DNA of 64,000 bases. It comes from Thermoanaerobaculia bacterium (lineage in GTDB: Bacteria > Acidobacteriota > Thermoanaerobaculia > Multivoradales > UBA5704). The stretch is from NCBI GenBank assembly GCA_035544895.1, contig DASZZM010000039.1:61007-125006 (forward strand), written 5' to 3'. Position numbers and translations under genes: made by a program. Positions 1 to 26,516 of the stretch are shown piece by piece (within the stretch, counting starts at the first letter, position 1; each line of letters starts with the position of its first letter). The notes beneath the pieces were generated by a model. The model was not told the DNA's origin. It ran no database searches and saw nothing but the letters and a program-made list of their open reading frames with translations.

Positions 1-1
1 G

Positions 2-1291
2 CGGCTGTACGACGAGCTCGTGGCGCTGCCCGAGGTTGCATGGGGGACGGCGATCGAGCAGGAGCGCTTCGGCTCGCCCGGTCTCGCCGATCTGCTGCTC
101 GCGGCGAGCGCCGAGACGGTGGGGAGCGATGCGCCGCGGGCGGAAAAGCTCGCAGCGCTGGCGCTCGACATCGCCGGCGGCGTCGATGGCGGCCGTTACG
201 GCGGGAGCCTGGTGCGGCGCCTGCACGCGCGCTGCCTCTGCGCTCTGGGCGAGGCGCGGCGCCGGCAGGGTGACAGCGCCGCGGCCGAGCGGGCTTTCGA
301 GGTGGCAGGGCGGCGGCTCGGCGACGAGCCCATGGACATCGAGGAGCGCGCCGTGGCCTGCCGGCTGCTGGCGCGGCTGCGCGCCGACCAGGAGAGACTG
401 GACGAGGCTTTCGGGCTGCTCGAGCGGGCGGCGATACTCTTTGCCGGCCTGGCCCGCTTCCGCGAGCTGGGCGAAGTCCTGGGCGAGCAGGGCCTTCTCT
501 ACCTCTCCCACGGCGAAGCGCATGCGGCGCTGCCGCTTTTGCGCGAGGCGGTCGGACACGTCGAGGCCTCGCCGCGGCCGCGTGCCGCGGTCGAGCTGCG
601 CCTCGGCCTGGCGCGCTGCTACGCCGAGCTGGGCCAGCCGGCCGAGGCGGACGCCGCCCTGGGGGCAGCGCGCCAGCTCTACCACCTCTTCGGCCGCCGC
701 GAGCGGCTGACCTTCCTGCACGCCGAGGCGGGCATCGACGCGCTGTGCCACCGGCTGCTCAAGGCGGTCTCGAAGCTCACGGCCGTGGTGCACCGGCTTG
801 GCGCCGTGGCGCCCTACGACGCGGCGGCGGCGGCGCTCGACCTGGCCGAGATCTACCTCGAGCGCGGCATGCGCGAGCCGCTGCTGCGGCTCGGCGGCGA
901 GCTCGTCCTGCTGCTGGCCTCGTCCGAGCTTCATCCGCGGGCGCGCCTGGTGTTGGCGGTCACCGTGGCGGTGCTCGCCCGCTCACCCGATGTCCTGTCG
1001 AGCGATCTCGTCGAGCGGGCGGCGCGCTACTTCGCGCTGGCCCGCCATGCCCCGGAGCGCGCCTTCGAGCGTCCCGAAGGCAGACCCTTCGAGCTGCCCT
1101 GGGACGAGCTCGACCCGGAGAGCTTGCGGCGTGATCTCTGCGCCGTGGCCGGGCTGCCGGAGGAGATGGCGCGCCTCGGTGCGGCGCAGATCGACCCGGC
1201 GATCCGGGAGCGGCTGGCGGCGACCTGCGAGGAGATCCTGGGAGTGCGCATCGTTTTCGGCGAGCTCGGAGCCAGGGCGGAGCCGAGCTGA
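2..1291 (+). CDS. TPR-like helical repeat protein, 5'-truncated by the window edge
   Basis: Frame is open from base 2 (RLYDELVALPE...). Ala/Leu-rich TPR-like repeats (ACRLLARLRADQERLDEAFGLLERAAILF; LRLGLARCYAELGQPAEADAAL). Similar in style to ORFs 1291 and 25101. Confidence 0.65.
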   Translation, partial: RLYDELVALPEVAWGTAIEQERFGSPGLADLLLAASAETVGSDAPRAEKLAALALDIAGGVDGGRYGGSLVRRLHARCLCALGEARRRQGDSAAAERAFEVAGRRLGDEPMDIEERAVACRLLARLRADQERLDEAFGLLERAAILFAGLARFRELGEVLGEQGLLYLSHGEAHAALPLLREAVGHVEASPRPRAAVELRLGLARCYAELGQPAEADAALGAARQLYHLFGRRERLTFLHAEAGIDALCHRLLKAVSKLTAVVHRLGAVAPYDAAAAALDLAEIYLERGMREPLLRLGGELVLLLASSELHPRARLVLAVTVAVLARSPDVLSSDLVERAARYFALARHAPERAFERPEGRPFELPWDELDPESLRRDLCAVAGLPEEMARLGAAQIDPAIRERLAATCEEILGVRIVFGELGARAEPS

Positions 1292-2577
1292 TGGAGCGCG
1301 GGCACCCGAGCCTCGAGACGCTCGCCAAGTGGCTGGCCGGACGGCTCGAGCACGACGAGGTACGCGGCGAGATCGTGCCGCACCTGGCGGAGTGCTGCGC
1401 GGGCTGCCGCGCCCGCTTCGCGGAGATCGGCCGCCTGCAGGGTGAGGTCGGGCATTGGGATGAGGTGGTCGCGGTGCTCGAAGGGCAGGCGGCGCCGGGT
1501 GTGGTCGCCGAGCTGCTGGCGCTGCCCGCGCCGGCGCGCTGGCGGCGCGCGGCGGAGCTCGCCGATTGGGGGGCGAGCCGCGAGCTGCTGCGCCGCAGCC
1601 GCGAGACGGCGCCCGACGACCCCGCCGCGGCAGCGGACCAGGCGCTGCTCGCCGTGGTGATGAGCGAGCGGCTGAGCAGCGCCTACGATCCGAATTGGGT
1701 GCTCGACCTCCAGGCGCTGGCGCACGCGCAGCTCGCCGAGACGCGGCGCCGCCTGGGCGAGCGGCACGGCGCGGGCGAGGAGCTGCGGCGCGCCGAGGAG
1801 TGCCTGGCGCGCAGCACGACCGGCAGCCCCCTGGTGCTGGCGGATGTGTTGACCGCCCGGGCGGCGCTCTCCCGCGACGAGGGACAGCCCGAAGAGGCCA
1901 GCCAGCTGCTCGGCGAAGCGATCGCCCTCTACCGGGAGGCCGAGGAGCGCGACACCGCCGCGGCGGCCGAGGTTCTGGTCGAGAGCGCGGACCTCCTGGC
2001 CGATCTCGGAGACTTCGAGGGCGCGCTGGCCAAGGTGGTCGAGGCGGAGAGCCTGGCGGGCGCCCTGGCCCCCGCCGCCGCCCCCGCGATGGTGATACGG
2101 ATCGAGCTCAAGGTGCTCGACGTCCTGACCCGGGCCGGGCGCGCCGAGCAAGCCGCGGCCCGGCTGGAGCAGGCGCGGGCGCTGGTGGCGGCACAGGGCG
2201 GGGAGCTGGAGGGCGCGCTGCTCGGGTGGGTCGAGGCGCGGCTGGCGCTGTCCGCGGGCGAGACGGCGGCGGCAGAGTCGGGCCTGCGCCGCGTCTGGCC
2301 GTCGCTCGCGGGGCAGCGGCGGTGCGGCGATGCCGCCCTGGCCGCGCTCGAGCTCGCGCTGCTCTTGCTGCACGACGACGGCGCGCCGGCAGAGGAGAGG
2401 CTCAAGTCCCTGGCGGCCGAGCTGACACAGGCGCTCGCCGCCGGCGCCGCCGAGACGGCGACCTGGGAGGGCCTGGTCGACTTCCTGCGCGCTGCCGCGC
2501 AAGGCCAGGTCAGGCCGGCCCTGGTACGGGCGACGGCGGCAGGCCTGCGCCTGGGGCCGCGGGGCAGGCGGTGGTGA
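1291..2577 (+). CDS. TPR-like protein with N-terminal anti-sigma-type zinc-finger-like motif (zf-HC2-like)
   Basis: N-terminus HPSLETLAKWLAG...VPHLAECCAGCRARF (HxxxCxxC-like), followed by TPR-like helices. ATG overlaps the upstream TGA. Confidence 0.7.
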   Translation: MERGHPSLETLAKWLAGRLEHDEVRGEIVPHLAECCAGCRARFAEIGRLQGEVGHWDEVVAVLEGQAAPGVVAELLALPAPARWRRAAELADWGASRELLRRSRETAPDDPAAAADQALLAVVMSERLSSAYDPNWVLDLQALAHAQLAETRRRLGERHGAGEELRRAEECLARSTTGSPLVLADVLTARAALSRDEGQPEEASQLLGEAIALYREAEERDTAAAAEVLVESADLLADLGDFEGALAKVVEAESLAGALAPAAAPAMVIRIELKVLDVLTRAGRAEQAAARLEQARALVAAQGGELEGALLGWVEARLALSAGETAAAESGLRRVWPSLAGQRRCGDAALAALELALLLLHDDGAPAEERLKSLAAELTQALAAGAAETATWEGLVDFLRAAAQGQVRPALVRATAAGLRLGPRGRRW

Positions 2578-2636
2578 GCGCTGGCGGGCCGGGAGGGACC
2601 GAGAGCGACGGGTCGCGCACCCGAGGAGGATCCCCG

Positions 2637-3071
2637 ATGAGCAGGAAACTGAGTTTCGGCCTCGCCGTGGCGAGTCTTTCGGTTGTCTGGGCCTGTAGCG
2701 GCGGTGGCAGCTCACCGTCCGAGCCGGTGGGCCAGGACAGTATCTCGTTGGTCACGATCACACCGGCCGACGGGACCAAGCTCGCCGCGGGCAGCGTGGT
2801 CACCTTCGCGGCGACGCTTCACTACCAGCTGAGCAGCGCCGCCTCGGGCGAGATCATCGAGGTGATTGAGAACCAGAACGGCGGCATTCTCACGAGCGGT
2901 CCGCAGTTTTCCGTAACGGTCAGCCGCGGGCAGGGCTCGGCACAGCTTGCCGACCGGATCACGATACCTTCGAGCGGCGTTACCCAGATCCTGGTCTTCT
3001 TCCCGCTGACTCCCCAGGGAGCCAATCACACATCGATTGTGGCGACCGCCGCCTATCCGGTGGGGCCTTAG
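2637..3071 (+). CDS. Secreted lipoprotein (144 aa), paralog 1
   Basis: GAGGA SD upstream; signal peptide with lipobox VVWA-C; beta-rich mature part; aligns colinearly with 4374-4808. True start lies inside track ORF 1566..3071. Confidence 0.8.
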   Translation: MSRKLSFGLAVASLSVVWACSGGGSSPSEPVGQDSISLVTITPADGTKLAAGSVVTFAATLHYQLSSAASGEIIEVIENQNGGILTSGPQFSVTVSRGQGSAQLADRITIPSSGVTQILVFFPLTPQGANHTSIVATAAYPVGP

Positions 3072-3117
3072 CCACGATGCGTCGCGCGCGCTTCGTGGAG
3101 CTCGAGCGGGTGGGGCA

Positions 3118-4308
3118 ATGATGACGGTTCCCGGAGCACCAGCGAGCGATCGGCAAGCGCTCGAGGATGTGCTGCCGGCGCTGTGCGAGCAGCTCCGGCC
3201 GCAGCTCCGGCGCATCCTCGCCGCTTTCCAGATCCCGATGGAGGACGCCGAGGACCTGGTGCAAACCACACTGCTGATCGCACTCGCGAAGTGGCCCGGG
3301 ATCTGGAACCCCACGGCATGGCTGCTCGGGACTCTCCAGAAACGCTGCATCATGTACTGGCGCGAGCGCCGCCGGCGTAGCGCCCGCCTGGTGGCCCTCG
3401 AGCCGCTCGAGCACGAGCTCAGCGCGGAGCCGCCCCAGGAAGGCCGAGTCCTCCTCGCCGAGATCGAGACGCTGTGCCGCCGGCTGCCGCAGCCGCAACG
3501 TGCGGTCGTTGTCCTCTACTGCTGCCAGGGCCTGCCCCAGCGGGACGTGGCGCGCGCCACCGGCCTCCGTCCTTCGTCGGTGAGGAAGACCGCGCATCGA
3601 GCAGTCGCCCAGCTGCGCCAGGCCGTAAAGGGTCGCGCGCCCGGTCCTCGCCACCCTTCCCGCCACTGCCTCGGCACCGGCTCGCCGTGGCCGGTAAACG
3701 CTTTCTTGGCCGCCTATGCCAGGTCGACACGGCGGAACTACGGCTGGCAGCTTGGCCGCGCCGCTGCCGCGCTTGGCGACGGCCCACTCGCCGAGCTCAC
3801 TGCCGAAGCGCTGGCCGCCTACCGCGCCGCCGTGATTGCGGACGGCCGCCCGCCCGGCAGTCAAGAGGCAACCCTGGCCCCGCTGCGAACGTTCCTCCTC
3901 TGGGCGGCCGAGCACGGTTGGCACGCTCTCGAGCCGGCAGTGATCCGAGAGGCCCTGCGCTCGCCGCTCCGGCGTCTCCGGATCCCGCGCACCCGCGCCG
4001 CCACCGGCTCGCCGTGGTCGGCGCCGGTGGACGCGTTTCTCGCCGGTCGGGCTGACACGACAAAGTGCCTCTACGCCCGGCAGCTTGGCCAGGCCGCCGC
4101 CAAGCTCGGCGGCAGGCCGCTCGCCGAGCTCACCGCCGAAACCCTGGCCGGCTGCGTCGCCGCGCTGAGGGCAGACGGGCGCGCGCCCATCACTCACGCC
4201 CAGAGGATTGTCACGCTGCGATCGTTCCTGCTGTGGACGGGCGAACGCGGCTGGCACGCTCTCGAGCCGGTGGTGGTTGACGAGGCCCTGCGGCGGCCAG
4301 ACGGATGA
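3118..4308 (+). CDS. ECF sigma-70 factor fused to two tandem integrase core-binding (SAM-like) domains
   Basis: Region 2 (EDAEDLVQTTLL...NPTAWLLGTLQKRCIMYWRERRRR) and region 4 (RLPQPQRAVVVL..QGLPQRDVARATGLRPSSVRKTAHRA), then two repeats resembling Phage_int_SAM (STRRNY..QL..A..L...PLAELTAE.LA.....L..DG..P......L..LR.FL.W....G). Confidence 0.75.
   Translation: MMTVPGAPASDRQALEDVLPALCEQLRPQLRRILAAFQIPMEDAEDLVQTTLLIALAKWPGIWNPTAWLLGTLQKRCIMYWRERRRRSARLVALEPLEHELSAEPPQEGRVLLAEIETLCRRLPQPQRAVVVLYCCQGLPQRDVARATGLRPSSVRKTAHRAVAQLRQAVKGRAPGPRHPSRHCLGTGSPWPVNAFLAAYARSTRRNYGWQLGRAAAALGDGPLAELTAEALAAYRAAVIADGRPPGSQEATLAPLRTFLLWAAEHGWHALEPAVIREALRSPLRRLRIPRTRAATGSPWSAPVDAFLAGRADTTKCLYARQLGQAAAKLGGRPLAELTAETLAGCVAALRADGRAPITHAQRIVTLRSFLLWTGERGWHALEPVVVDEALRRPDG
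3675..4295 (+). repeat. Intragenic tandem duplication (~100 aa units) in the sigma factor C-terminal extension
   Basis: CACCGGCTCGCCGTGG at 3675 and 4002; both units read TGSPW..V.AFLA...PLAELTAE.LA...LR.FLLW..E.GWHALEP.V..EALR. Confidence 0.9.
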
Positions 4309-4373
4309 AAGCAGCTACCCGGCCGGAGAAGAAGTGGCGCCCGGCGGGTCATGCGGCGCACAGGAGAATCCCA

Positions 4374-4808
4374 ATGAGCAGAAAACTGGTCTTCGGCCTT
4401 GCCGTCGTGCTCCTGTCGGTTGTCTATGCCTGCAGCGGCGGTGGCAGCTCGCCGTCCGAGCCCGTGAGCCAGGACAGCCTCGCGTTGGTCACGATCGCGC
4501 CGGCCGCCGGGACCAGGCTCGCCGCGGGCAGCGCGGTCACCTTCGCCGCCACGCTCCACTATCAGTTGGGCAGTGCTGCCTCCGGCACCATCGCCGAAGT
4601 CATCGAGAACCAGACCGGCGGCCTGCTCGGCAGCGGCCCGCAGGTGAGCGTCACGGTCAACCGCGGGCAGGGCTCGGTGCAGCTCGCCGACCGCATCACC
4701 GTGCCGCTCTCGGGGGTCACCCAGGTTGAGGTCTTTTTCCCGTTGACTCCCGCGGGCGTGACCACGACCTCGATCGTGGCGACCGCCACCTATCCGGTAG
4801 GGCCTTAG
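4374..4808 (+). CDS. Secreted lipoprotein (144 aa), paralog 2
   Basis: AGGAG SD; lipobox VVYA-C; same length as and colinear with 2637-3071 (MSRKL.FGLAV...CSGGGSSPSEPV...YPVGP). Confidence 0.8.
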   Translation: MSRKLVFGLAVVLLSVVYACSGGGSSPSEPVSQDSLALVTIAPAAGTRLAAGSAVTFAATLHYQLGSAASGTIAEVIENQTGGLLGSGPQVSVTVNRGQGSVQLADRITVPLSGVTQVEVFFPLTPAGVTTTSIVATATYPVGP

Positions 4809-5207
4809 CAGCCATGCCGCTTCGGCCGGGTAGCGCAAGGGTGGGCGGTCGCCGAGGGCTGGCGAGCGGCAGCGGGCCTGGACGAACTCGCAGGGCGCCT
4901 GAGCGTCGCGGCCGGGCGCGACGGCCTTTACGTGGCCGCCTTCTCCGGCGAGGGCGGTCTGTGGCGGCTGCCCTGGGAGGCGCTCGAAGCCGCGGAGTGG
5001 CAGCGGGTCGGCGAGGCGAGGCTGGATGGGGAGCCACTGCCGGTCTTGAATTGATGCCGGTCGACCGCGCCGCGGCTGCTGCAGCGCGCATCCTGATGGG
5101 GTTTCGTGCGGGAGAGGAGCCGCAAGCGCCACGAAACCGCACCGTACGCACGCTGAATAGCGTGGGGGGCGGCGTAAGTCGGTCGGCGGCGGTTCGCCGA
5201 CGCGCCG

Positions 5208-6155
5208 TTAGCTCACCGGCCGCCGCCCGCCATCAATGGGAGTTTGAACGTAATGGCTCTGCGACCCCATGGTGAGGGCGCCGGCTTCAAAATCCAAGTA
5301 GAGCAGGTCTTCGAACGGCCCGAGGTCGGCGCCTGGAGACGCGACCGTGATCCAGTCGGTGATCGCCGCGAGCACCTCGGCGCCGAGCGCCGTGTTGGTG
5401 GTGAACAGGAGCTCCTTGCCGAGGACTTCACCCGACCGGCTCATCTTGAGCTGGACCGCCAGGACACCCGAGAGTTTGCCGAGCCGTCCTTCGGGCACCT
5501 TGAGGCCGAAGAGCCGTCCGGCTGCGTCCTTCTTCGACCGCGCCTGGCGGAAATGGAAGCTCCTGGCCGTATCATCCTCGCCACCGAACATCAGCTGGTG
5601 GTCGGCGCACTGTTGGAACTTCGTCGCATAGTCGGGATCGGAGGCGAACCGTAGTTGTCGGATCGGGACTCGATCTTGCTTCGGCTCGACGAGCTCGCTA
5701 TAGGACCACAGATCTTGGTCAGGCTTGAAATCCTGCTGCAACTGGGTGCACGACTCCAGGGAAAGAGCAGCCGCGCCATCGCTGGTCCTTGTCCGGCTGC
5801 CTGTTGCCTTCGCCGGCGCGACGCCGCCACGAGCTGCAATCTCCGGCAGACTAAGCTTCGCGCACTGATAGTCGGGCCAAGGCCCACAATCGTAGAACGC
5901 GCAGTTGTTCCGATTAACGGGCCTGCCCGCCGTTCTGCAGCAGCACGAAGCCTCCAGGGCTGACCCGCAGAAGCTGTCCCGGCAAAAGGGCGAGCCCGTG
6001 GCGCAAAGCGGTGTGCACTTTGTGGTGTCCGCCACGCACGGGCAGGTGCACTTCGCTGAGCAGTCGTCCTGAGCGACCGCCGGGACCGTGAAGGCCAAGA
6101 CTCCCACCAGCACGGCAAGAGCGACAGTAGCTGGCTCTCGGTTCGTGGAGGACAT
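5208..6155 (-). CDS. Secreted protein with 14-cysteine N-terminal domain and possible TonB_C-like C-terminal domain
   Basis: GGAG upstream; signal peptide ending AVA-Q; 14 Cys in about 67 residues. C-terminal GVLAVQLKMSRSGEV...ALGAEVLAAITDW resembles the TonB C-terminal pattern (weak, by eye). Confidence 0.6.
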   Translation of the reverse strand: MSSTNREPATVALAVLVGVLAFTVPAVAQDDCSAKCTCPCVADTTKCTPLCATGSPFCRDSFCGSALEASCCCRTAGRPVNRNNCAFYDCGPWPDYQCAKLSLPEIAARGGVAPAKATGSRTRTSDGAAALSLESCTQLQQDFKPDQDLWSYSELVEPKQDRVPIRQLRFASDPDYATKFQQCADHQLMFGGEDDTARSFHFRQARSKKDAAGRLFGLKVPEGRLGKLSGVLAVQLKMSRSGEVLGKELLFTTNTALGAEVLAAITDWITVASPGADLGPFEDLLYLDFEAGALTMGSQSHYVQTPIDGGRRPVS

Positions 6156-6435
6156 GTGATCCTCTCCCTTTAAGAAGACTCCTATTCGAGCATATAGCGT
6201 CTCCTGGAGAGGCTGTCAAGGCAGGCGAGTCCGGCGGATGTCCTTTCAGCGGCCGAGGACCTTCTCGCAGGCAGGGTCTCCTGCGGTTTGGCACTGAACG
6301 GCATTTGCAACCTCCGACGACCCGAACCACGGCGTGCTCCTCGGCCGCCGGGTCGCTCATCGCACGAGAGACCTTTCGATGCTCGCCAGGTACGCACTCC
6401 CACCGCGGCAACGCCCTTGACACCCGTCATGTCAT

Positions 6436-6459
6436 GTCTGATAAACGACGTTATCGGAC
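6436..6459. promoter_or_regulatory. Palindromic tyrosine-recombinase-type binding/crossover site
   Basis: GTCTGATAA-ACGACG-TTATCGGAC: 9-bp inverted arms (1 mismatch) with a 6-bp spacer, 16 bp upstream of the integrase-remnant ATG. Confidence 0.6.
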
Positions 6460-6475
6460 CCGAAAAGGAGGCGAG

Positions 6476-6790
6476 ATGCCCCGCCACTCCAAGCCCGCTC
6501 GAACCCCCCAAACCGCATTAGCGCCCCTTGGCGGGCCGATCGGCCGTCCAGGCGGCCTCGTGCTCCCCTCCCTCATCGCCCAGGCCGGCGAGCGGGCGGC
6601 GCGCCGCTTCCTCGACTACTTTACGGCCGAGATCCGAAACCCCCATACTCGCGGCGCCTACGCCGGTGCGGCGCGGCGGTTTCTCGCCTGGTGCGACGGC
6701 CGAGGCCTCGCCCTCTCCGAGCTCCAGCCGTTTGTGGTGGCGGCCTGCGTCGAGGAGCGCGGCCGCGCGCTCGCCGCGCCCTCGGTCAAG
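6476..6790 (+). pseudogene. Truncated tyrosine recombinase/integrase (N-terminal core-binding part only)
   Basis: AAGGAGG SD and ATG at 6476. LPSLIAQAGERAARRFLDYFTAEIRNPHTRGAYAGAARRFLAWC...APSVK is a typical plasmid-type integrase N-terminus. Similarity stops near APSVK; no catalytic R-H-R-Y domain. Confidence 0.75.
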
Positions 6791-6875
6791 GGCGCTACCC
6801 TTCACTGGGGGCGCCTTCGTGAGCTTCCCGGGCCTTCGATCCACGGTGCGGACCCACGACAGGCGTCCAGTCCGG

Positions 6876-7934
6876 CTACCGCAGGTCGGCGCCGACCGCT
6901 TCCCAGATCGACTCGAAGCCGTCGCGGGCCATCAGCTCGAGGAGCTCGAGGTTGATGCGGCGCGCCAGCGAGGGGCCTTCGTAGACCAGGGCGGTGTAGA
7001 CCTGGACCAGGGAGGCGCCGGCGCGGATGCGGCGGTAGGCCTCCTGGCCGGAGTCGATGCCGCCGGCGCTGATCAGGACGGAGCGGCCGAAGACGCGCCG
7101 GGCCACCGCGGCGAGGACGCGGCGACTCTGATCGCGCAGCACCTGGCCGGAGAGGCCGCCGAAGGGCTGGCTGCCGGGGAGGAGAGAGTAGTCGGTCGTG
7201 GTGTTGGTCGCCACGATGCCGGCGGCGCCGGCATCGACCGCCGCGGCGGCCAGGCTCGCGGCCTCGCCGGGCTCGAGATCCGGCGCGAGCTTGACCAGCA
7301 CCGGGCGGCCGGTGAGGCGGGCGGCCAGGGCCAGGAGGGCGCGCAGGAAGGGCTCGTTCTGCAGATCGCGGAGGCCGGGGGTGTTGGGCGAGGACAGGTT
7401 GACGACCAGGTAGTCGGCGAGATCGCCCAGGGCGCCGAGCAAGGCCTCGTAGTCGGCCAGCGCCTCTTCGGCGGGCGTCGCCCGGCCCTTTCCCAGGTTC
7501 ACCCCCACGGGCAGCGGAAACGGCCGCGCGGCGGCGAGGCGGCGGCGCATCGCCGCCAGGCCAGAGTTGTTGAAGCCGAGGGCGTTCTGCAGGCTGCGCG
7601 CGGCGGGGAAGCGGAAGACGCGCGGCCGCGGGTTGCCGGGCTGCGGCAGCGGGGTCACCGTGCCGACCTCGACGAAGCCGAAGCCGAGCATGGGCAGGGC
7701 GCGGACGGCCGCGGCGTCCTTGTCGAAGCCGGCGGCGAGCCCGACCGGGTTGGGGAAACGGCGGCCGAACAGGGTCTGGGCGAGCGCCTCGGCGCTGATC
7801 CGGTAGCGGGCCTCCAGGCGCCGGGCCAGCGGCGGCAGGGCCGCGGCCGCGCGCAGGGCGAAGAGGCCCAGGCGGTGGCTCGTCTCGGGATCGAGCCGGA
7901 AGAGCAGGGGGCGGAGGGCGGGATAGGAGAGCAC
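6876..7934 (-). CDS. pyrD: Quinone-dependent dihydroorotate dehydrogenase (class 2)
   Basis: NPVGLAAGFDK, EVGTVTPLPQPGNPRPRVFR, VNLSSPNTPGLR, KLAPDL, NTT, GGLSG, VQVYTALVYEGP motifs. Confidence 0.95.
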   Translation of the reverse strand: MLSYPALRPLLFRLDPETSHRLGLFALRAAAALPPLARRLEARYRISAEALAQTLFGRRFPNPVGLAAGFDKDAAAVRALPMLGFGFVEVGTVTPLPQPGNPRPRVFRFPAARSLQNALGFNNSGLAAMRRRLAAARPFPLPVGVNLGKGRATPAEEALADYEALLGALGDLADYLVVNLSSPNTPGLRDLQNEPFLRALLALAARLTGRPVLVKLAPDLEPGEAASLAAAAVDAGAAGIVATNTTTDYSLLPGSQPFGGLSGQVLRDQSRRVLAAVARRVFGRSVLISAGGIDSGQEAYRRIRAGASLVQVYTALVYEGPSLARRINLELLELMARDGFESIWEAVGADLR

Positions 7935-8040: not shown

Positions 8041-8337
8041 GTGGAAACCATGCCAGGGGCCACCACCGAAGTGGAGATCTACGGTGTGGTCTACCATGTG
8101 CGCGGCAGCGATGACCAGGAGTACCTTCAGGGACTGGCCGATCTCGTGGACCGCCGGATGCGCGAGGTCGCCCAGCACGCGAGCACGGCCGACACGACCC
8201 GCATCGCGATCCTGGCGGCGCTCAATCTGGCGGATGAACTGTCCCGCACTCAGAAGCGGCAGGAAGGGGAACGGGTCGAGATCAAGGAGAAGGTGGCGAA
8301 GCTGACCGAGGAATTGACGGCAGCCCTGAACGGTTGA
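8041..8337 (+). CDS. zapA: Cell division protein ZapA (start may be ATG 8050)
   Basis: VEIYG..Y.VRG....YL..LA..VD..M; RIAILAALNLADEL; canonical position upstream of 6S RNA and rny. Confidence 0.9.
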   Translation: METMPGATTEVEIYGVVYHVRGSDDQEYLQGLADLVDRRMREVAQHASTADTTRIAILAALNLADELSRTQKRQEGERVEIKEKVAKLTEELTAALNG

Positions 8338-8387: not shown

Positions 8388-8583
8388 GCACCCCCTGCGT
8401 GGTTCGTGATGGTTACCACGATTGTAGAACCAACATACATCTCTCGGGAGTCTTTTACCCGCGCGGCCCGTGCCAGCCTCCATCCCACCCGGATGACGAG
8501 GACGCTAACGGCTCGTGGAGCGGACACCCACCTGGTGCGTTTCAGGTTCTAAACGCCGGCCCACACGGCCACGCGGGGGATGC
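8388..8583 (+). ncRNA. ssrS: 6S RNA (SsrS)
   Basis: About 195 nt between zapA and rny (conserved synteny). 5' GCACCCCCTGCGTGGTTCGTG can pair with 3' CACGGCCACGCGGGGGATGC as a closing stem. Boundaries approximate. Confidence 0.75.
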
Positions 8584-8658: not shown

Positions 8659-10227
8659 GTGAATGATCAAGTCACACTGTTTGCAGCCGCCGCTCTGCTG
8701 GTCGGGGCCGGCGTCTTGCTCGTCTGGTTCGTGCTGCTGCGGCGGGCGGGAAAGCGCATGGCCGCGCAGGCCAAGCGGCAGGCCGGCAAGACCATCGAAG
8801 ACGCCGAGCGGCAGGCCGAGACGATCCGCCGCGAGGCCGAGGTCGCGGCGCGCGAGAAGCTTCTGCAGGCGCGCAGCGAGCACGAGGCGGCGCTGCGCAA
8901 GCGGCGGGTCGAGCTCGAGGCCCTGGAACGGCGGCTCACCCAGAAGGAGGACAACCTCGACAAGCGCGCCGACGAGGTGGCGCGCCGCGAGCGCGACCTG
9001 ACGCAGACCGACCGCGAGCTCACCGGCCGCGAAAAGGCCCTGGCCAGGCAAGAGACCGAGGTCGAGACAATCGCCGCGGAGGGGCGCGCCCGGCTCGAGC
9101 AGATCGCCGGATTGACCGCGCAGCAGGCGCGCGAAGAGCTGCTGCACGAGATGGAGGACGGAGCGCGAATCGAAGCCGCGCATATCGTCAAGCGCATCGA
9201 GGACGAAGCGCGCGAGCAGGGCGGCAAGCAAGCCCAGCGCATCATCGGGATGGCGGTGCAGCGCTCCGCCTCGGACTACGTGTCGGAGACCACCGTCTCG
9301 GTGGTGATGCTGCCGAGCGACGAGATGAAGGGGCGCATCATCGGCCGCGAAGGACGCAACATCCGCGCCCTCGAGATGGCGACCGGGGTCGATCTCATCG
9401 TCGACGATACGCCGGAGGCGGTGATCCTCTCCGGGTTCGATCCATACCGCCGCGAAGTCGCCAGGGTAGCGCTCGAGCGCCTGATCGGCGACGGCCGCAT
9501 CCATCCGGCCCGCATCGAAGAGGTGGTCGAGAAGGTCAAGGCCGAGCTCGACCAGAAGATCGTGCAGGAGGGGGAGTCGGCCCTCCTCGAGCTGGCGATC
9601 CCCGGCATGCACCCCGAGCTCATCCGGCTCCTGGGGCGCTTGCGCTACCGCACCTCCTACGGCCAGAACGTGCTGCAGCACAGCAAGGAGGTCGCCTTCC
9701 TGGCCGGCACCATGGCCGCGGAGCTCAGGGCCAACATCCAGGTCGCCCGCCGCGCCGGCCTGGTGCACGACATCGGCAAGGCCATCGACCGCGAGATGGA
9801 CGGCACCCATCTGCAAATCGGCATCGACCTGCTGCGCAAGTACGGAGAGAACGAAGACGTGGTGCACGCGATGGCCTGCCACCATGGCGACTACGACCCG
9901 CAGACGGTCGAGGCGGTTCTGGTGACCGCCGCCGACGCGCTCTCCGCGGCCCGCCCCGGGGCCCGCCGCGAGATCCTCGAGACCTATGTCAAGCGCCTGG
10001 AGAAGCTCGAAGAGATCGCCTCCGGCTTCAAGGGGGTGCAGAAGACCTTCGCCATCCAGGCCGGCCGCGAGATCCGCATCATCGTCGACAGCGGCAAGAT
10101 CAGCGACGAGCAGTCGCTCTGGCTCTCCAAAGACATCGCGCGCAAGATCGAGGCGGAGCTGACTTATCCCGGGCAGATCAAGGTGACGGTCATCCGCGAG
10201 ACCCGCTCCATCGAGTACGCGCGGTGA
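8659..10227 (+). CDS. rny: Ribonuclease Y
   Basis: N-terminal TM helix, coiled coil, KH ([17 protein letters not shown]), HD domain (GLVHDIGKA), C-terminal [12 protein letters not shown]. Confidence 0.97.
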
Positions 10228-11021
10228 AGCTGCTCTTCGTCGGCGACGTCGTCGGCAAACCCGGACGCAAGGCGCTGCTCGGATTGCTGCCGCGCCTGGT
10301 GGACCGCCACCTGGCCGACTACGTGGTGGTCAACGTCGAGAACTCGGCGGGAGGCTTCGGCGTCACGCCCGAGGTGCTCGACGAGCTGGCGGAGCTGCCC
10401 ATCGATTGCTTTACGACCGGCAATCATGTCTGGGACAAGAAGGAAGTCCTCGAGCTGCTCGAGCGCGAGCCGCGGTTGCTGCGCCCCGCCAACTACCCGG
10501 AGGGCAACCCCGGGCGGGGCCTGCACCTCGGCGAGACGGCGGCGGGGGTGCCGGTGGCGACGCTGAACCTGGAGGGGAGGGTGTTCATGCACAACCTCGA
10601 CTCGCCCTTCCTGGTCGCCGACCGGCTGCTGGCCTCTCTGCGCCCCGACGTCAAAGTGGTGCTGATCGATTTTCACGCCGAGACGACGAGCGAGAAGCAG
10701 GCCCTGGCCTTCTATCTCGACGGGCAGGTGAGCGCGGTGATCGGCACCCACACCCACGTGCCGACCGCCGACGAGCGTGTGCTGCCCCGGGGGACCGCGC
10801 TGTTGACCGACGCGGGCATGACCGGCCCTTACGAATCGATCATCGGCATGCGCGCCGACAAGGTTCTCAAGCGCTTCCTGCTGCAGACCCCCGCCAGCTT
10901 CGAGGTCGCCAAGCGCGACGTCCGCCTCGCCGCCGCCGTCGTCGACGTCGACGAGGAAACCGGCAAGGCGCGCGGCATCGAGCGCCTGCTGGTGCCGTTC
11001 GGGCACGACGAGACGGACTGA
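10224..11021 (+). CDS. ymdB: YmdB/TIGR00282 metallophosphoesterase
   Basis: [53 protein letters not shown]; overlaps the rny stop. Confidence 0.93.
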
Positions 11022-24663: not shown

Positions 24664-25029
24664 ATGAGCAGGCAAGGACTTCACCGCGTTTTACCAGGGC
24701 TGGCCATCGCGGCCGCCCTGAACCTGACGGCTCCCGGCCGGGCCGAGGCGGCCTGGGCTTTCCGAGCCAATTCCGCGGCAGGCTGGAGCGACGTCTGGAG
24801 CGCCGCCTGGAGCAAGGGGGCGAGCTGGTGGGACGATCTGTGGGCCCGGGTTGGGCCCGGGCCGTCCCGCGGCGGCTCACGGCCGAGCACGGAAGCTCGA
24901 TTCAGCGGCGTCTCGAGGAAAGAGGGCCAGCACGATGGCGACTCTTCGTGGCACCGCGACGATCGGGGTCCCGGTTCAGAAGGAGCCTGCAGCGTCAACC
25001 CGAACGGCGTCTGCAGCCCTGAGCACTGA
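24664..25029 (+). CDS. Small secreted protein/propeptide (121 aa) ending in C-SVNPNGV-C
   Basis: Strong SD; signal peptide ending AEA-A; Trp-rich segment, Gly/Ser/Arg linker, C-terminal GACSVNPNGVCSPEH. Confidence 0.7.
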   Translation: MSRQGLHRVLPGLAIAAALNLTAPGRAEAAWAFRANSAAGWSDVWSAAWSKGASWWDDLWARVGPGPSRGGSRPSTEARFSGVSRKEGQHDGDSSWHRDDRGPGSEGACSVNPNGVCSPEH

Positions 25030-25100: not shown

Positions 25101-26516
25101 TTGAGCGAACATCCCACCGCCGAGGAGCTCGCGCGCTTCATCGCCGAGGAGCTTCCTCCGCCGCGGACTCGGGCCGTGGTCGAGCACCTGGTCCGCGGCT
25201 GCCGGCGCTGCCGCACGGCGCTTGCCGGGCGGACGGGACTCGCTTCCTTCGCGGCTCCGGCGGCGGCTGCCGAGCGGCCGGCGGCCGGTGGACGGGATCG
25301 CCGGCGCGGCAAGCGGAGCGGAACGGGCGCCGGCTCCGGCTCCTGCAATGCCGAGTACGACCGCGCGATCGCCAGCGCTTTCGCCACCGCTCGCCGGCAC
25401 AGCCGCCGCCTGCGCCTCGACAAGGCGAGAGCGCAGCAGGTCCGCGACCTCTTGCAGGCCCGGGGCATCGCCGGCTTCCTCGGCCTGCCCAGGCACCTGC
25501 GCGGCGTACCCGCCTGTCAAGGGTGTCTCGATCTCGCCTGGTCCCTGCGCCAGGAGGATCCGCGGCAGATGGTGCAGCTGGCGCAGCTGGCGACCCTGGC
25601 CGCGCGCCGGCTGCCGCCGGCTGGCCACGGCGATGCCCAGAGCCTCGACTTGCGCTGCCGAGCCGAGATGGAGCTGGCCAACGCCTATCGGGTGGTCAGC
25701 CGGTTTCGCGAAGCGGGTGCCGCCTTGAGTGTCGCGGCCGACCTCTTTCGCCGCGGCAGCCGAGATCCTTTCCTTGCCGCGCGGCTCCTCGAGATCAAGG
25801 CCAACATCTGCGGCGACCGCTGCAACTTCCTGGAAGCCTTCAGAGCTCTCAACGGCGCGGCGCGGATCTATCGCCGCTACGGCCAACCTCACCTCGCCGG
25901 CCGCATGCTGATCGAGAAAGGCATGTATAGCGGCCACGCGGGCGAGCCGGAGAAGGCGATCGCCTTGCTGCGCCAAGGCCTCGAGATGATCGATCCGGCG
26001 ATCGATCCGCAACTAGCCCTGGCGGCGGTTCACAACGTGGCGGTGTGTATGGTGGATCGCGGCGACTTCCGGCCGGCACGGCTGCTGCTCTGGCGTCATC
26101 TGCAGCTCTTCGAGGAGCATGCCGGCCTGACGCATCGGCTGAGGCTGGCGTGGCTGAAAGGCCGGATTCACGAGGGACTTGGAGAGTACGTCCGCGCCGA
26201 GCGCGCCTTCGTCCAGACACGCGAGGACATGTCCGCCGCCGGCGACCCGTACGCGGCGGCGACCGCCACTCTCGATCTCGCCGCACTGACGATGCGGCGG
26301 GGAGACGCCGAGCGCGCGCACGCCCTCGCCCGCGAAGCGGCGCAGGTCTACTTCACCCTGGACCTCGGGCGCGAGACCACGGCCGCCGTGATGCTCCTCG
26401 AGGCGACTCTCGAGTTTCAGAAGAGTACGACGGCAGGGCTGTTCAAACAGGTTGCCGATTTCATGCGCCAGGCCGCGAGCGATAAGTCGCTGAGTTTCAG
26501 GAATTATTTCTCGTAA
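25101..26516 (+). CDS. TPR-like protein with N-terminal zf-HC2-like motif
   Basis: AAGGAGG SD and TTG start; HPTAEELARF...VVEHLVRGCRRCR; AEMELANAYRV...A.AAL; multiple TPR-like helix pairs. Confidence 0.75.
   Translation: MSEHPTAEELARFIAEELPPPRTRAVVEHLVRGCRRCRTALAGRTGLASFAAPAAAAERPAAGGRDRRRGKRSGTGAGSGSCNAEYDRAIASAFATARRHSRRLRLDKARAQQVRDLLQARGIAGFLGLPRHLRGVPACQGCLDLAWSLRQEDPRQMVQLAQLATLAARRLPPAGHGDAQSLDLRCRAEMELANAYRVVSRFREAGAALSVAADLFRRGSRDPFLAARLLEIKANICGDRCNFLEAFRALNGAARIYRRYGQPHLAGRMLIEKGMYSGHAGEPEKAIALLRQGLEMIDPAIDPQLALAAVHNVAVCMVDRGDFRPARLLLWRHLQLFEEHAGLTHRLRLAWLKGRIHEGLGEYVRAERAFVQTREDMSAAGDPYAAATATLDLAALTMRRGDAERAHALAREAAQVYFTLDLGRETTAAVMLLEATLEFQKSTTAGLFKQVADFMRQAASDKSLSFRNYFS

What the first reader, a model, noticed from the sequence alone, without database searches (positions are those of the whole stretch)
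3118..4308. ECF sigma factor fused to two tandem recombinase core-binding domains
Seen: complete sigma regions 2 and 4, then two ~100-aa duplicated units (starts 3675 and 4002) with the pattern of XerC/D-type N-terminal SAM-like domains and no catalytic domain. Established: these domains bind DNA half-sites, and ECF C-terminal extensions (SnoaL, TPR, Zn-finger) modulate activity. I do not know of integrase-derived extensions. Inference: a domesticated integrase DNA-binding module that could tether the sigma to palindromic att/dif-like sites (two domains for two half-sites) or auto-inhibit it. An integrase remnant and a recombinase-type palindrome lie about 2 kb away. Strongest novelty candidate in the window.
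Basis: partly seen in the sequence, partly recalled or inferred. Interest (0 to 1): 0.85.

Follow-up and report, generated by a model that had tools for sequence, protein, structure and literature searches.

The report
Sigma factor carrying integrase DNA-binding domains
This is a real, conserved gene for an alternative (ECF-type) sigma factor whose tail consists of two copies of the DNA-binding "core-binding" domain of tyrosine recombinases without the catalytic domain; I found no description of this architecture, and it may give a sigma factor an extra, mobile-element-derived way to find its DNA targets.

Summary
Window 3118-4308 (+) encodes one 396-aa protein. It has ECF sigma regions 2 and 4, then two ~105-aa units that are 60% identical. 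The units match Phage_int_SAM_1 above Pfam's cut-off and fold like integrase core-binding (CB) domains. There is no catalytic domain.

It is not an assembly artefact. About 30 distinct proteins from independent metagenome and MAG assemblies, mostly Thermoanaerobaculia (Acidobacteriota), carry the same fusion with 1, 2 or 3 units. Unit orthology is position-specific.

The fusion is a rare branch of a large Thermoanaerobaculia sigma family. In the 93 plain paralogs found, only 1-49 residues (median 15) follow the sigma-domain match. The only partner conserved in all 10 fusion lineages is a ~450-aa cytoplasmic TPR protein whose N-terminus matches zinc-type anti-sigma domains (DdvA, ChrR, RslA).

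Most likely mechanism (inferred, about 45%): the anti-sigma controls activity, and the flexibly tethered CB units act as extra DNA-binding modules. Rivals are a regulatory extension or a protein-docking module.

Novelty: a new variant of a known kind (an ECF sigma with a C-terminal extension of a type I found no description of).

The parts
3118..4308 (+). Gene for the 396-aa ECF-type sigma factor with two C-terminal integrase core-binding-like units (sigma-CB2)
   Evidence: Single ORF; Pfam and NCBIfam domain hits; about 30 homologues with the same fusion.
3184..3378 (+). Sigma region 2 (aa 23-87)
   Evidence: PF04542, E 4.7e-9, above cut-off. Confident helices H9-36, H41-57 and H65-90. Foldseek matches to ECF sigma structures.
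3460..3615 (+). Sigma region 4 (aa 115-166), with the helix-turn-helix that reads the -35 element
   Evidence: PF08281, E 3e-10, above cut-off. The recognition helix SSVRKTxxRA is conserved in both fused and plain paralogs.
3670..3993 (+). Core-binding-like unit 1 (aa 185-292)
   Evidence: Unit HMM E 9e-39. The XerC model matches its N-terminal positions 12-105. Helices H193-197, H202-218, H229-241, H246-265 and H273-279. Orthologous to unit 1 of P0002 (63% identity).
3997..4305 (+). Core-binding-like unit 2 (aa 294-396); the protein ends here, with no catalytic domain
   Evidence: PF02899, 24.7-27.3 bits against a cut-off of 22.3. 60% identical to unit 1. Orthologous to unit 2 of P0002 (68% identity). 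Foldseek matches to integrase CB domains.
1291..2577 (+). Candidate cognate anti-sigma factor: cytoplasmic TPR protein (428 aa) with an N-terminal zinc-type anti-sigma domain motif (H..27 aa..HLAECCAGC)
   Evidence: TPR_12 hit below Pfam's cut-off (21 bits against 30.1). The TPR family is present next to the sigma gene in all 10 fusion lineages and in many plain-paralog loci. H-x3/4-C-x2-C is present in 38 of 54 family members. The N-terminal profile hits the anti-sigma factors DdvA (E 8.4e-5), ChrR (2.4e-3) and RslA (0.02).
20..1291 (+). Second TPR-family paralog. Its reading frame is open to the left end of the window, so the true start may lie outside.
   Evidence: TPR Pfam hits, one at its cut-off (TPR_19, 24 bits against 25) and the rest below. 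TPR-family HMM hit on the stop-to-stop ORF 2..1288.
2637..3071 (+). Small lipoprotein (144 aa; MSRKL...ACSGGG lipobox), 46 nt upstream of the sigma gene
   Evidence: Sequence read directly. Paralog of 4374-4808 (D1/D3). A close homologue (HMM E 7e-85, near-identical by eye) lies directly downstream of the sigma-CB gene in L004.
4374..4808 (+). Lipoprotein paralog (144 aa), 65 nt downstream of the sigma gene
   Evidence: DNA repeat 2633-3080 versus 4370-4817 at about 76-81% identity.

Best explanation
Window 3118-4308 encodes a functional ECF-type sigma factor (regions 2 and 4). Through disordered linkers it carries two autonomous four-to-five-helix domains derived from the core-binding (CB) domain of XerC/D-like tyrosine recombinases.

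It belongs to a sigma family that is greatly expanded in Thermoanaerobaculia. The regular partner of this family is a cytoplasmic anti-sigma factor made of a zinc-type anti-sigma domain plus TPR repeats; here that is the gene at 1291-2577.

Proposed mechanism:
- The anti-sigma/TPR protein holds the sigma inactive until a signal arrives.
- Once the sigma is released and bound to RNA polymerase, region 4 and region 2 read the -35 and -10 elements as usual.
- The CB units, acting like beads on a string, bind additional specific DNA sites near the target promoters. They would work as a built-in activator or tether, comparable to the alpha-CTD on UP elements, to FliZ, or to dCas12f recruiting sigmaE. 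The number of units (1-3) would set the number or strength of these contacts.

What is shown: the domain identities, the conservation of the fusion, the partner gene, and the position-specific maintenance of the units. What is inferred: the anti-sigma function, and above all DNA binding by the units and its role in promoter targeting.
For: Anatomy.

Integrase origin and retained CB features: true recombinases with a catalytic domain are among the significant matches to the extension. Fused units and integrase CB domains share one consensus, W..AV.AFL...TRR.Y.R.L...LG..LAELT..LA.YRA...DG..P....AL..LRSFL.W...G.H.L. This includes the basic residues of helices 2 and 4, the DNA-contacting helices in Cre, lambda Int and FliZ according to PMC3367168. 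Both groups also have the same mean net charge of about +5 per unit.

The fusion is maintained:
- 24 of 104 50%-identity cluster representatives, plus further members, carry it. One cluster (P0013) holds four full-length 580-aa members on separate contigs from JGI and ENA sources.
- Units are orthologous by position even where the units within one protein are only 30-35% identical.
- dN/dS is below 1 in the ortholog pairs, although the counts are small.

The units behave as autonomous modules:
- Linkers are disordered and pTM is low.
- One member (P0037) has a linker of about 240 aa, rich in Pro and Ala.
- A sigma-less protein of four units (P0012) is encoded next to a sigma-CB3 gene and is colinear with its extension.

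The extension coexists with an anti-sigma partner. In described ECF groups, C-terminal extensions typically correlate with the lack of an anti-sigma factor (PMC7826278), so activity control is probably not the extension's job.

The region 4 recognition helix stays conserved in fused members, so the units add to promoter recognition rather than replace it.

Precedents: FliZ is a CB-like domain without a catalytic domain that binds DNA sequence-specifically (PMC3367168). dCas12f-sigmaE shows that an ECF sigma can be delivered to DNA by a nuclease-dead Cas12f (the paper places it alongside repurposed TnpB proteins; PMC12259091).
Against: - No DNA target was identified. The window's operon promoter lies beyond the left edge of the window.
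- A conserved ~60-nt element sits upstream of the sigma-CB genes in three other lineages. It is absent from the window and shows no repeat structure that tracks unit number.
- Isolated CB domains of recombinases are, to my knowledge, generally weak DNA binders.
- Two helix-2 basic positions are less conserved in fused units than in integrases (0.8 to 0.4 and 0.7 to 0.4), and a fusion-specific motif (ADGR.P) has appeared.
- The two window units differ with dN/dS of about 0.8. This fits either diversified specificity or relaxed constraint.
- I could not inspect predicted inter-domain contacts (no PAE output), so docking of the units on sigma is not excluded.
Confidence: 0.45

Rival explanations
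1. The CB-like units are a regulatory extension in the manner of ECF41, ECF42 or ECF56. They would contact sigma2, sigma4 or the linker and switch the sigma on or off. The DNA-binding ancestry would be irrelevant.
For: In the ECF groups reviewed, C-terminal extensions are treated as regulators of sigma activity (PMC7826278; the review PMC8999054 was listed, and only searched it for integrase-type terms). The extension is conserved across the sub-family. Fusion-specific residues such as ADGR.P, absent from integrases, could form a new interface.
Against: A cognate anti-sigma is co-encoded in all 10 lineages, which is atypical for extension-regulated ECFs. Unit number varies from 1 to 3 and linkers range from about 10 to 240 residues. 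AlphaFold places no fixed contact between the domains (pTM 0.40, disordered linkers), although the alignment was shallow. A free-standing four-unit protein exists (P0012).
Confidence: 0.25
2. The units are protein-docking modules. They would bind a partner such as one of the TPR paralogs, a recombinase or relaxosome of the host mobile element (CB domains contact each other in recombinase synapses), or each other. This would couple sigma activity or location to the state of the element.
For: Several fusion loci sit on plasmid-like or integrative elements. L089 is about 19.5 kb and carries iterons, DnaB, ParA, a relaxase and an integrase; L003, L004 and L086 are similar; L001 has an integrase 2.5 kb away; the window has an integrase remnant. 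Multiple TPR paralogs lacking the anti-sigma motif occur in the same loci.
Against: Integrases in these loci are not of the unit-type family: there is no unit-HMM hit on them and the window remnant is unrelated. The L085/L091 members are chromosomal with no mobile-element genes nearby. The number of TPR genes does not track the number of units. The residues conserved in the units are the same as in DNA-binding integrase CB domains.
Confidence: 0.15
3. Artefact or decay: a misassembly, or a recent accidental fusion of a sigma gene with a degraded integrase gene, with no function for the tail.
For: An integrase remnant lies nearby, and one MAG (L026) has sigma and unit in different frames.
Against: The same architecture appears in about 30 proteins from JGI, ENA, Logan and NCBI assemblies, down to 38% identity. 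Position-specific unit orthology is maintained, and no catalytic-domain remnant follows the units. In the window, a lipoprotein gene starts 65 nt after the stop codon.
Confidence: 0.02

Closest known systems
ECF sigma factors with C-terminal extensions (ECF41/ECF56/ECF294 SnoaL-like, ECF42 TPR, ECF238/287/288 Cys-rich; Casas-Pastor et al. 2021, PMC7826278)
   Same: A minimal sigma2-sigma4 core followed by a fused C-terminal domain of more than 50 aa that is conserved within a phylogenetic sub-branch.
   Different: The extension is a tandem array (1-3 copies) of an integrase core-binding domain, a nucleic-acid-binding fold. This type is not among the extension types listed in the main text of that paper. 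It coexists with a co-encoded anti-sigma factor and is joined by long disordered linkers rather than predicted to pack on the sigma core.
FliZ of Escherichia coli (Pesavento and Hengge 2012, PMC3367168)
   Same: An integrase core-binding-like domain without a catalytic domain, used in transcription control. In FliZ it binds DNA sequence-specifically through the helix that corresponds to CB helix 2.
   Different: FliZ is a free-standing repressor that competes with sigmaS-RNA polymerase. Here the CB domains are covalently fused to the sigma factor itself and are repeated. No specific sequence relationship to FliZ was tested.
dCas12f-sigmaE RNA-guided transcription (Xiao, Hoffmann et al. 2025, PMC12259091)
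   Same: An ECF sigma associated with a catalytically dead DNA-binding protein (a nuclease-dead Cas12f, which the paper places alongside repurposed TnpB proteins) that can bring the holoenzyme to DNA.
   Different: There the binder is a separate RNA-guided protein and largely supplants -35 recognition. Here it would be a protein domain fused in cis, and the sigma4 recognition helix remains conserved. The function is not demonstrated.
XerC/XerD-like tyrosine recombinases
   Same: The units are homologous to their N-terminal core-binding domain: Pfam PF02899 above cut-off, NCBIfam XerC/XerD N-terminal positions, Foldseek matches, and a shared consensus with recombinases found.
   Different: There is no catalytic domain and no R-K-H-R-H-Y active site, so recombination is impossible. 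The domain is duplicated in tandem and attached to a sigma factor.
Zinc-type anti-sigma factors (ChrR, RslA, DdvA), relevant to the partner gene at 1291-2577
   Same: An N-terminal H...H-x3/4-C-x2-C anti-sigma-domain signature, encoded next to its ECF sigma gene. DdvA likewise carries a large C-terminal domain (CHAT).
   Different: The C-terminal sensor part is a roughly 350-aa TPR array with no membrane segment. Pfam zf-HC2 matches are only sub-threshold, and the spacing is mostly H-x4-C rather than H-x3-C.

Membership tests
ECF (group 4) sigma-70 family sigma factors | Regions 2 and 4 present and scoring above curated family thresholds | tested here: met
   PF04542 36.3 bits against 24; PF08281 40 bits against 25.7. 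TIGR02937 sigma70-ECF 58.7 bits against 42.9.
ECF (group 4) sigma-70 family sigma factors | No region 1.1 and no region 3; a short sigma2-sigma4 linker | tested here: met
   No Sigma70_r1 or r3 hits. The sigma part is about 170 aa with a 15-residue disordered linker at aa 91-105. The best structural matches are ECF sigmas: SigH, RpoE, SigL, AlgU.
ECF (group 4) sigma-70 family sigma factors | Binds core RNA polymerase and directs promoter-specific initiation | not testable with these tools
   Needs biochemistry. Only the conservation of the DAEDLVQ motif and of the region 4 recognition helix was seen.
ECF sigma factors regulated by a fused C-terminal extension (ECF41/42/56 type) | Conserved extension of more than 50 aa after region 4 | tested here: met
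   The extension is 212 aa here, and 1-3 units occur in about 30 homologues.
ECF sigma factors regulated by a fused C-terminal extension (ECF41/42/56 type) | Extension of a described type (SnoaL-like, TPR, Cys-rich, DUF1835, transmembrane) | tested here: not met
   The only above-threshold Pfam match in the extension is Phage_int_SAM_1. No such type is mentioned in PMC7826278 or PMC8999054.
ECF sigma factors regulated by a fused C-terminal extension (ECF41/42/56 type) | Usually no co-encoded anti-sigma factor | tested here: not met
   A ZAS-TPR gene is adjacent in all 10 fusion lineages. Its N-terminal profile hits DdvA, ChrR and RslA.
ECF sigma factors regulated by a fused C-terminal extension (ECF41/42/56 type) | Extension packs against sigma2, sigma4 or the linker | tested here: inconclusive
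   pTM 0.40 with disordered linkers suggests independent domains. The alignment was shallow (18 sequences) and no PAE or contact output was available.
Tyrosine recombinases (XerC/XerD-like integrases) | N-terminal SAM-like core-binding domain | tested here: met
   PF02899 above cut-off. The XerC and XerD models align through their N-terminal positions only. Foldseek matches 3nrw, lambda Int CB, Cre, XerA. Homology to recombinases P0034, P0042 and P0049.
Tyrosine recombinases (XerC/XerD-like integrases) | C-terminal catalytic domain with the R-K-H-R-H-Y active site | tested here: not met
   No PF00589 hit. The ORF stops at the end of unit 2 and the next gene starts 65 nt later. My catalytic-domain HMM finds nothing in the window.
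FliZ-like catalytic-domain-less CB regulators | CB-like domain without a catalytic domain | tested here: met
FliZ-like catalytic-domain-less CB regulators | Sequence-specific DNA binding through CB helix 2 | not testable with these tools
   Only the conservation of the helix-2 motif TRRxYxRxL relative to integrases was seen.
FliZ-like catalytic-domain-less CB regulators | Specific sequence relationship to FliZ | not tested
   No FliZ sequence was compared. NCBIfam hits for the extension were XerC, XerD and PRK00283 only.
Zinc-binding (ZAS) class I anti-sigma factors (partner gene 1291-2577) | N-terminal anti-sigma domain with an H-x3-C-x2-C zinc motif | tested here: inconclusive
   The motif H-x3/4-C-x2-C is invariant in the N-terminal alignment A5 (25 sequences) and present in 38 of 54 family members. 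The profile hits DdvA (8.4e-5), ChrR (2.4e-3) and RslA (0.02). Pfam zf-HC2 scores only 11-14 bits against a cut-off of 22.2, and the window copy reads H-x4-C-x2-C.
Zinc-binding (ZAS) class I anti-sigma factors (partner gene 1291-2577) | Encoded next to, and binds, its cognate sigma | tested here: inconclusive
   Adjacency is met, and in some loci the genes overlap (L004: 8433-10004 and 10001-11035). Binding is not testable here.

The most novel reading that the evidence does not exclude
The CB arrays are sequence-specific DNA readers that program where this sigma factor initiates. This would be a protein-only, cis-fused counterpart of dCas12f-sigmaE, in which a domesticated recombinase module supplies promoter-upstream recognition. 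Each diverged unit would read its own half-site, and the sigma-less four-unit protein would act as a competitor. The system may in addition be switched by a secreted Cys-loop 'DPNG' peptide sensed by the TPR anti-sigma factor.
Probability: 0.3. Interest if true: 0.8.

Novelty: new variant of a known kind. Interest (0 to 1): 0.66.

Why it matters
ECF sigma factors are among the main signal-transduction devices of bacteria. The extensions described in the ECF papers consulted here are treated as regulators of sigma activity. An extension built from a DNA-binding domain of mobile-element recombinases would be a new principle: a sigma factor with its own auxiliary DNA-targeting module.

It would also add a second clear case, after FliZ, of a recombinase core-binding domain recruited for transcription, and a protein-level parallel to RNA-guided sigma recruitment by dCas12f.

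The modular design (1-3 diverged units on flexible linkers) would make it attractive for engineering orthogonal promoters.

It also points to a large, uncharacterised sigma/anti-sigma(TPR) family in Thermoanaerobaculia, a poorly studied soil lineage, partly carried on plasmid-like elements.

Tried and rejected
- Sequence searches of the extension against PDB chains, as a single sequence and as a profile, gave no usable hit. Only the fold comparison connected it to solved integrases.
- Search for the fusion in IMG/VR viral contigs: none. In PLSDB plasmids: only generic sigma hits. The JGI metagenome scan with unit patterns gave one extra locus, L087.
- Paralogs of the sigma or of the units elsewhere in the window: none.
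- Link between the units and the neighbouring integrase remnant: rejected, no similarity. Link to integrases in homologous loci: rejected, no unit-HMM hit on them.
- The 6436-6459 palindrome as a recombinase site: the arms are 7 nt and need an indel to pair, and it was not reported by the repeat finder. I treat it as chance.
- Promoter and target-site search:
  - No sigma-70-like promoter was found in window 1-7000.
  - The ~60-nt element conserved upstream of sigma-CB genes in L001, L003/L089 and L088 is absent from the window. I could not parse it into convincing -35/-10 or CB half-sites.
  - A dyad search on plain paralogs gave a promoter-like motif, CTGGACA-N15/16-TGTTAAC, in 16 places. 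It was not matched in the sigma-CB loci or in the window, which were included in the scan.
- Defence-system models (PADLOC): no hit for any gene of the locus.
- Correlating unit number with the number of TPR genes or with upstream repeats: no relation.
- dN/dS estimates are based on few substitutions and are only indicative.
- The look-up of encoding contigs could not return the window's own contig or P0005, so the operon start left of the window remains unseen.
Full report
**1. What is in the window**

The region is about 70-75% G+C. On the + strand, ATG 3118 to TGA 4308 is one ORF of 396 aa.

Pfam finds the following:
- Sigma70_r2, aa 23-87, E 4.7e-9.
- Sigma70_r4_2, aa 115-166, E 3e-10.
- Phage_int_SAM_1, aa 317-373, at 24.7 bits, or 27.3 bits when the tail is scanned alone. 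The cut-off is 22.3.
- No recombinase catalytic domain.

NCBIfam places the N-terminal half in the ECF superfamily (TIGR02937, 58.7 bits against a cut-off of 42.9). The XerC and XerD models align to the tail only through their first ~100 positions, in two stretches. PHROGs gives 'sigma factor' plus 'integrase'.

The tail consists of two units, aa 185-292 and aa 294-396. They are 60% identical (E 6e-36) and repeat with a 333-nt period at DNA level.

**2. Fold**

AlphaFold2 on an 18-sequence family alignment gives mean pLDDT 82.9. There are four confident helical domains separated by disordered linkers (aa 91-105, 173-183, 287-292), and pTM is only 0.40. The picture is beads on a string.

Foldseek matches the N-terminal half to solved ECF sigma factors: M. 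tuberculosis SigH and SigL holoenzymes, RpoE-NepR, AlgU-MucA and SigG1.

A separate model of the extension (pLDDT 82.6) has tyrosine-recombinase core-binding (CB) domains as its best PDB matches:
- 3nrw, the N-terminal domain of a Haloarcula integrase: TM 0.70, rmsd 2.5 A over 98 columns, probability 1.0.
- Lambda Int CB (1z19, 2oxo), Brujita Int, Cre, XerA and Tn1549 Int.

Foldseek E-values are weak (0.1-2), as expected for a ~100-aa helical bundle. The ranking, the Pfam score and the sequence homology below all agree.

**3. The tail is integrase-derived**

A full HMMER scan of 1.84 billion cluster representatives with the 212-aa tail found 104 proteins at E <= 1e-3. Two groups stand out:
- 24 of them have the same sigma domain in front of the units.
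- Many others are ordinary ~300-400-aa tyrosine recombinases with a Phage_integrase catalytic domain and sub-threshold XerC/XerD-like NCBIfam scores.

Aligned to one HMM, the 45 sigma-fused units and the 37 integrase CB domains share a single consensus: W..AV.AFL...TRR.Y.R.L...LG..LAELT..LA.YRA...DG..P....AL..LRSFL.W...G.H.L.P..I..ALR.P. They also share the same conserved basic columns and the same mean net charge of about +5.

Mean identity is 38.5% among fused units and 32.1% between fused and integrase units, and the nearest neighbours of fused units are mostly other fused units. This is compatible with one capture followed by diversification, but it does not prove it.

**4. The fusion is real and maintained**

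Counting, about 30 distinct proteins from JGI, ENA, Logan and NCBI assemblies show the sigma-plus-unit architecture. One cluster (P0013) holds four full-length 580-aa members on separate contigs from JGI and ENA sources. Public annotations call these proteins just 'sigma-70 family'.

Unit number by protein:

| Units | Proteins |
|---|---|
| 1 | 22 |
| 2 | 5 (including the window protein) |
| 3 | 4 |
| 4, no sigma domain | 1 (P0012) |

P0012 has no sigma and no catalytic domain. It is encoded 1.4 kb downstream of a sigma-CB3 gene and is colinear with that gene's extension.

Units are orthologous by position. Window unit 1 is closest to P0002 unit 1 (63%) and unit 2 to unit 2 (68%). In more distant members the units within one protein are only 30-35% identical, yet each has a 54-75% ortholog at the same position in another protein.

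dN/dS in two close ortholog pairs is 0.2-0.4 for the units; this rests on few substitutions. The two window units differ with dN/dS of about 0.8.

Closely related plasmid-like contigs (near-identical gene order) carry a two-unit version (P0007, L003) and a one-unit version (P0009, L089). Copy number is therefore labile.

**5. Family and partner**

A scan of GTDB species genomes returned 80 loci, nearly all from Thermoanaerobaculia and other Acidobacteriota MAGs. These carry 93 plain paralogs of the sigma domain, with only 1-49 residues (median 15) after the sigma-domain match, often in tandem arrays. Only one locus (L026) has a unit. The fusion is thus a rare derived branch of a lineage-specific sigma family. 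The region 4 recognition helix is conserved in both groups.

All-against-all comparison of the neighbourhoods of the 10 fusion lineages finds only two shared gene families: the sigma itself and a ~420-520-aa TPR protein. The TPR gene often overlaps the sigma gene (L004).

Evidence that the TPR protein is an anti-sigma factor:
- 38 of 54 TPR-family members have an N-terminal H..(~27 aa)..H-x3/4-C-x2-C motif.
- A profile of this N-terminus hits the solved anti-sigma factors DdvA (E 8.4e-5), ChrR (2.4e-3) and RslA (0.02).
- Pfam zf-HC2 is only sub-threshold.

In the window this partner is 1291-2577 (HLAECCAGC). A second TPR paralog (20-1291) may start outside the window.

Gene order in the window is: TPR, ZAS-TPR, lipoprotein (2637-3071), sigma-CB2, lipoprotein paralog (4374-4808). 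The gaps are 46-65 nt, so this is probably one operon whose promoter lies left of the window. A close homologue of the same lipoprotein follows the sigma-CB gene in L004 (HMM E 7e-85).

**6. Genomic setting**

Several fusion loci are on mobile elements:
- L089 is a ~19.5-kb plasmid-like contig. It has 22-nt iterons, par-like 8-nt repeats, DnaB, ParA, a TraI-type relaxase, MobC/NikA and an integrase.
- L003, L004 and L086 are similar.
- L001 has an integrase 2.5 kb away.
- L085 and L091 are chromosomal with no such genes.

In the window, an N-terminal integrase fragment (6476 to about 6800) abuts the 3' end of the pyrD-like gene (6876-7934, -). It is 60-65% identical to plasmid tyrosine recombinases but unrelated to the units. 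No integrase in any of the fusion loci examined is of the unit type.

**7. How it most likely works**

Two things are shown. The protein is an ECF-type sigma with conserved core-binding and promoter-reading elements. It also has a conserved neighbouring gene with an anti-sigma-domain signature.

The rest is inferred. The anti-sigma/TPR protein gates activity. The CB units, which keep the integrase consensus and charge, sit on flexible linkers of 10 to about 240 residues and also exist as a free-standing array. They would act as auxiliary DNA-binding modules that anchor the holoenzyme, or pre-position the sigma, at specific sites near its promoters.

Precedent supports plausibility:
- FliZ is a CB-like domain without a catalytic domain that binds DNA specifically through the helix equivalent to CB helix 2 (PMC3367168).
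- dCas12f-sigmaE shows an ECF sigma being delivered to DNA by a nuclease-dead Cas12f (PMC12259091).
- In described ECF groups, extensions typically correlate with the absence of an anti-sigma (PMC7826278). Here both are present, which argues that the extension does something other than gate activity.

I put this model at about 0.45. The rivals are a regulatory extension (0.25), a protein-docking module (0.15) and an artefact (0.02).

No DNA target was identified. This is the main gap.

**8. Comparison with what is known, and novelty**

The protein is a member of the ECF sigma superfamily; the curated thresholds are met.

It is not a tyrosine recombinase, because the catalytic domain is absent.

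It resembles the extension-bearing ECF groups in layout. It fails two of their usual features: a described extension type, and the absence of an anti-sigma.

Full-text searches found no paper that mentions a sigma factor fused to an integrase SAM-like or core-binding domain. Neither the ECF reclassification paper nor a 2022 review of non-canonical ECFs mentions integrase or recombinase. The supplementary tables of the classification paper were not available, so a listing there cannot be excluded.

I rate it a new variant of a known kind. Interest is 0.66: a specialist would be surprised by the domain combination, the family is coherent and testable, but the function is still inferred.

Noticed in passing
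window 24664-25029 (+) and 25101-26516 (+); also L001 13502-13825(-), L003 5996-6301, L004 7390-7728(-), L085 11224-11535, L086 3110-3436, L088 4486-5112(-), L005, L068, L070: Genes for small secreted proteins (~70-135 aa: signal peptide, Trp-rich helix, then C-terminal repeats of the type C-x-G-x-(D/N)P(D/N/S)G-x-C) lie next to, and mostly directly upstream of, ZAS-TPR anti-sigma-like genes in many loci. This includes an orphan ZAS-TPR gene in the window that has no sigma gene next to it. The arrangement recalls peptide plus cytoplasmic TPR-receptor (RRNPP-type) signalling, and the peptide could be the input signal of this sigma/anti-sigma family.
   Followed up: partly
window 2633-3080 and 4370-4817: The sigma-CB gene is flanked by two paralogous lipoprotein genes (144 aa each, lipobox ACSGGG; 76-81% DNA identity, spacing 1737 nt). 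A close homologue (HMM E 7e-85) follows the sigma-CB gene in L004 (11029-11457). Its function is unknown; it may be a regulon member.
   Followed up: partly
window 6476-6811 (+): N-terminal ~105 aa of a tyrosine recombinase, 60-65% identical to plasmid-borne integrases of Sphingobium, Skermanella and others. It is cut off before the catalytic domain, right next to the 3' end of the pyrD-like gene (6876-7934, -). Together with the lower-GC stretch at 5500-6500, this suggests the right border of a decayed integrated element.
   Followed up: partly
window 5208-6155 (-): 315-aa protein with a hydrophobic, signal-like N-terminus and a very Cys-rich N-terminal part (CSAKCTCPCV...CCCR). It has no Pfam, PADLOC or PHROG match and lies between the sigma operon and the integrase remnant.
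   Followed up: no
window 8389-8583 (+): 6S RNA (Rfam RF00013, 60.3 bits against a gathering score of 46.4), directly after a small ORF (8041-8337, my reading by eye: ZapA-like) and before a 522-aa ORF (8659-10227, my reading by eye: RNase Y-like).
   Followed up: no
L002 8092-9606 (+): P0012: a 504-aa protein made of four CB-like units, with no sigma and no catalytic domain. It is colinear with the extension of the neighbouring sigma-CB3 gene (4771-6693) and is annotated in the source as 'site-specific recombinase XerD'.
   Followed up: partly
L003 7837-8295; L089 7164-7622; L090 5471-5929: A 152-aa truncated paralog of the sigma (the region 2 part only) is encoded directly after the TPR gene on the plasmid-like element, in addition to the full sigma-CB gene.
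   Followed up: no
L001 9945-10000; L003 9957-10010; L088 1854-1915 (also L089, L090): A conserved ~60-nt element lies upstream of sigma-CB genes in three diverged lineages: (A)ACTT-S-TCGCGTA-R-AT, then 10 nt, then CTTG-KR-TA..ATACCG..GGGGG..GTG. In L003 it includes the palindrome GTATAG-G-CTATAC. It is absent from the window, and I could not assign -35/-10 elements or CB sites.
   Followed up: partly
L017 7883, L021 7940, L048 7937, L054 7939, L055 7929, L058 7893, L067 7925 and others: Plain (unit-less) sigma paralogs share a promoter-like motif, GCTATAAG-CTGGACA-N15/16-TGTTAAC, about 60 nt upstream of the start codon.
   Followed up: no
L089 1-19540: The contig looks like a complete or nearly complete small plasmid. 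The first 19 nt recur at 19513-19531. It has three 22-nt iterons at 124-190 before dnaB, arrays of 8-nt repeats flanking the parA operon (3600-3655, 4865-4944), a relaxase and an integrase. A perfect 22-nt inverted repeat (10315-10364) spans the stop codon of the sigma-CB gene.
   Followed up: partly
L026 7419-9232: In the only GTDB representative genome with a unit, the sigma domain and the unit are in different reading frames. This is either a frameshift in a MAG assembly or a decaying copy.
   Followed up: no
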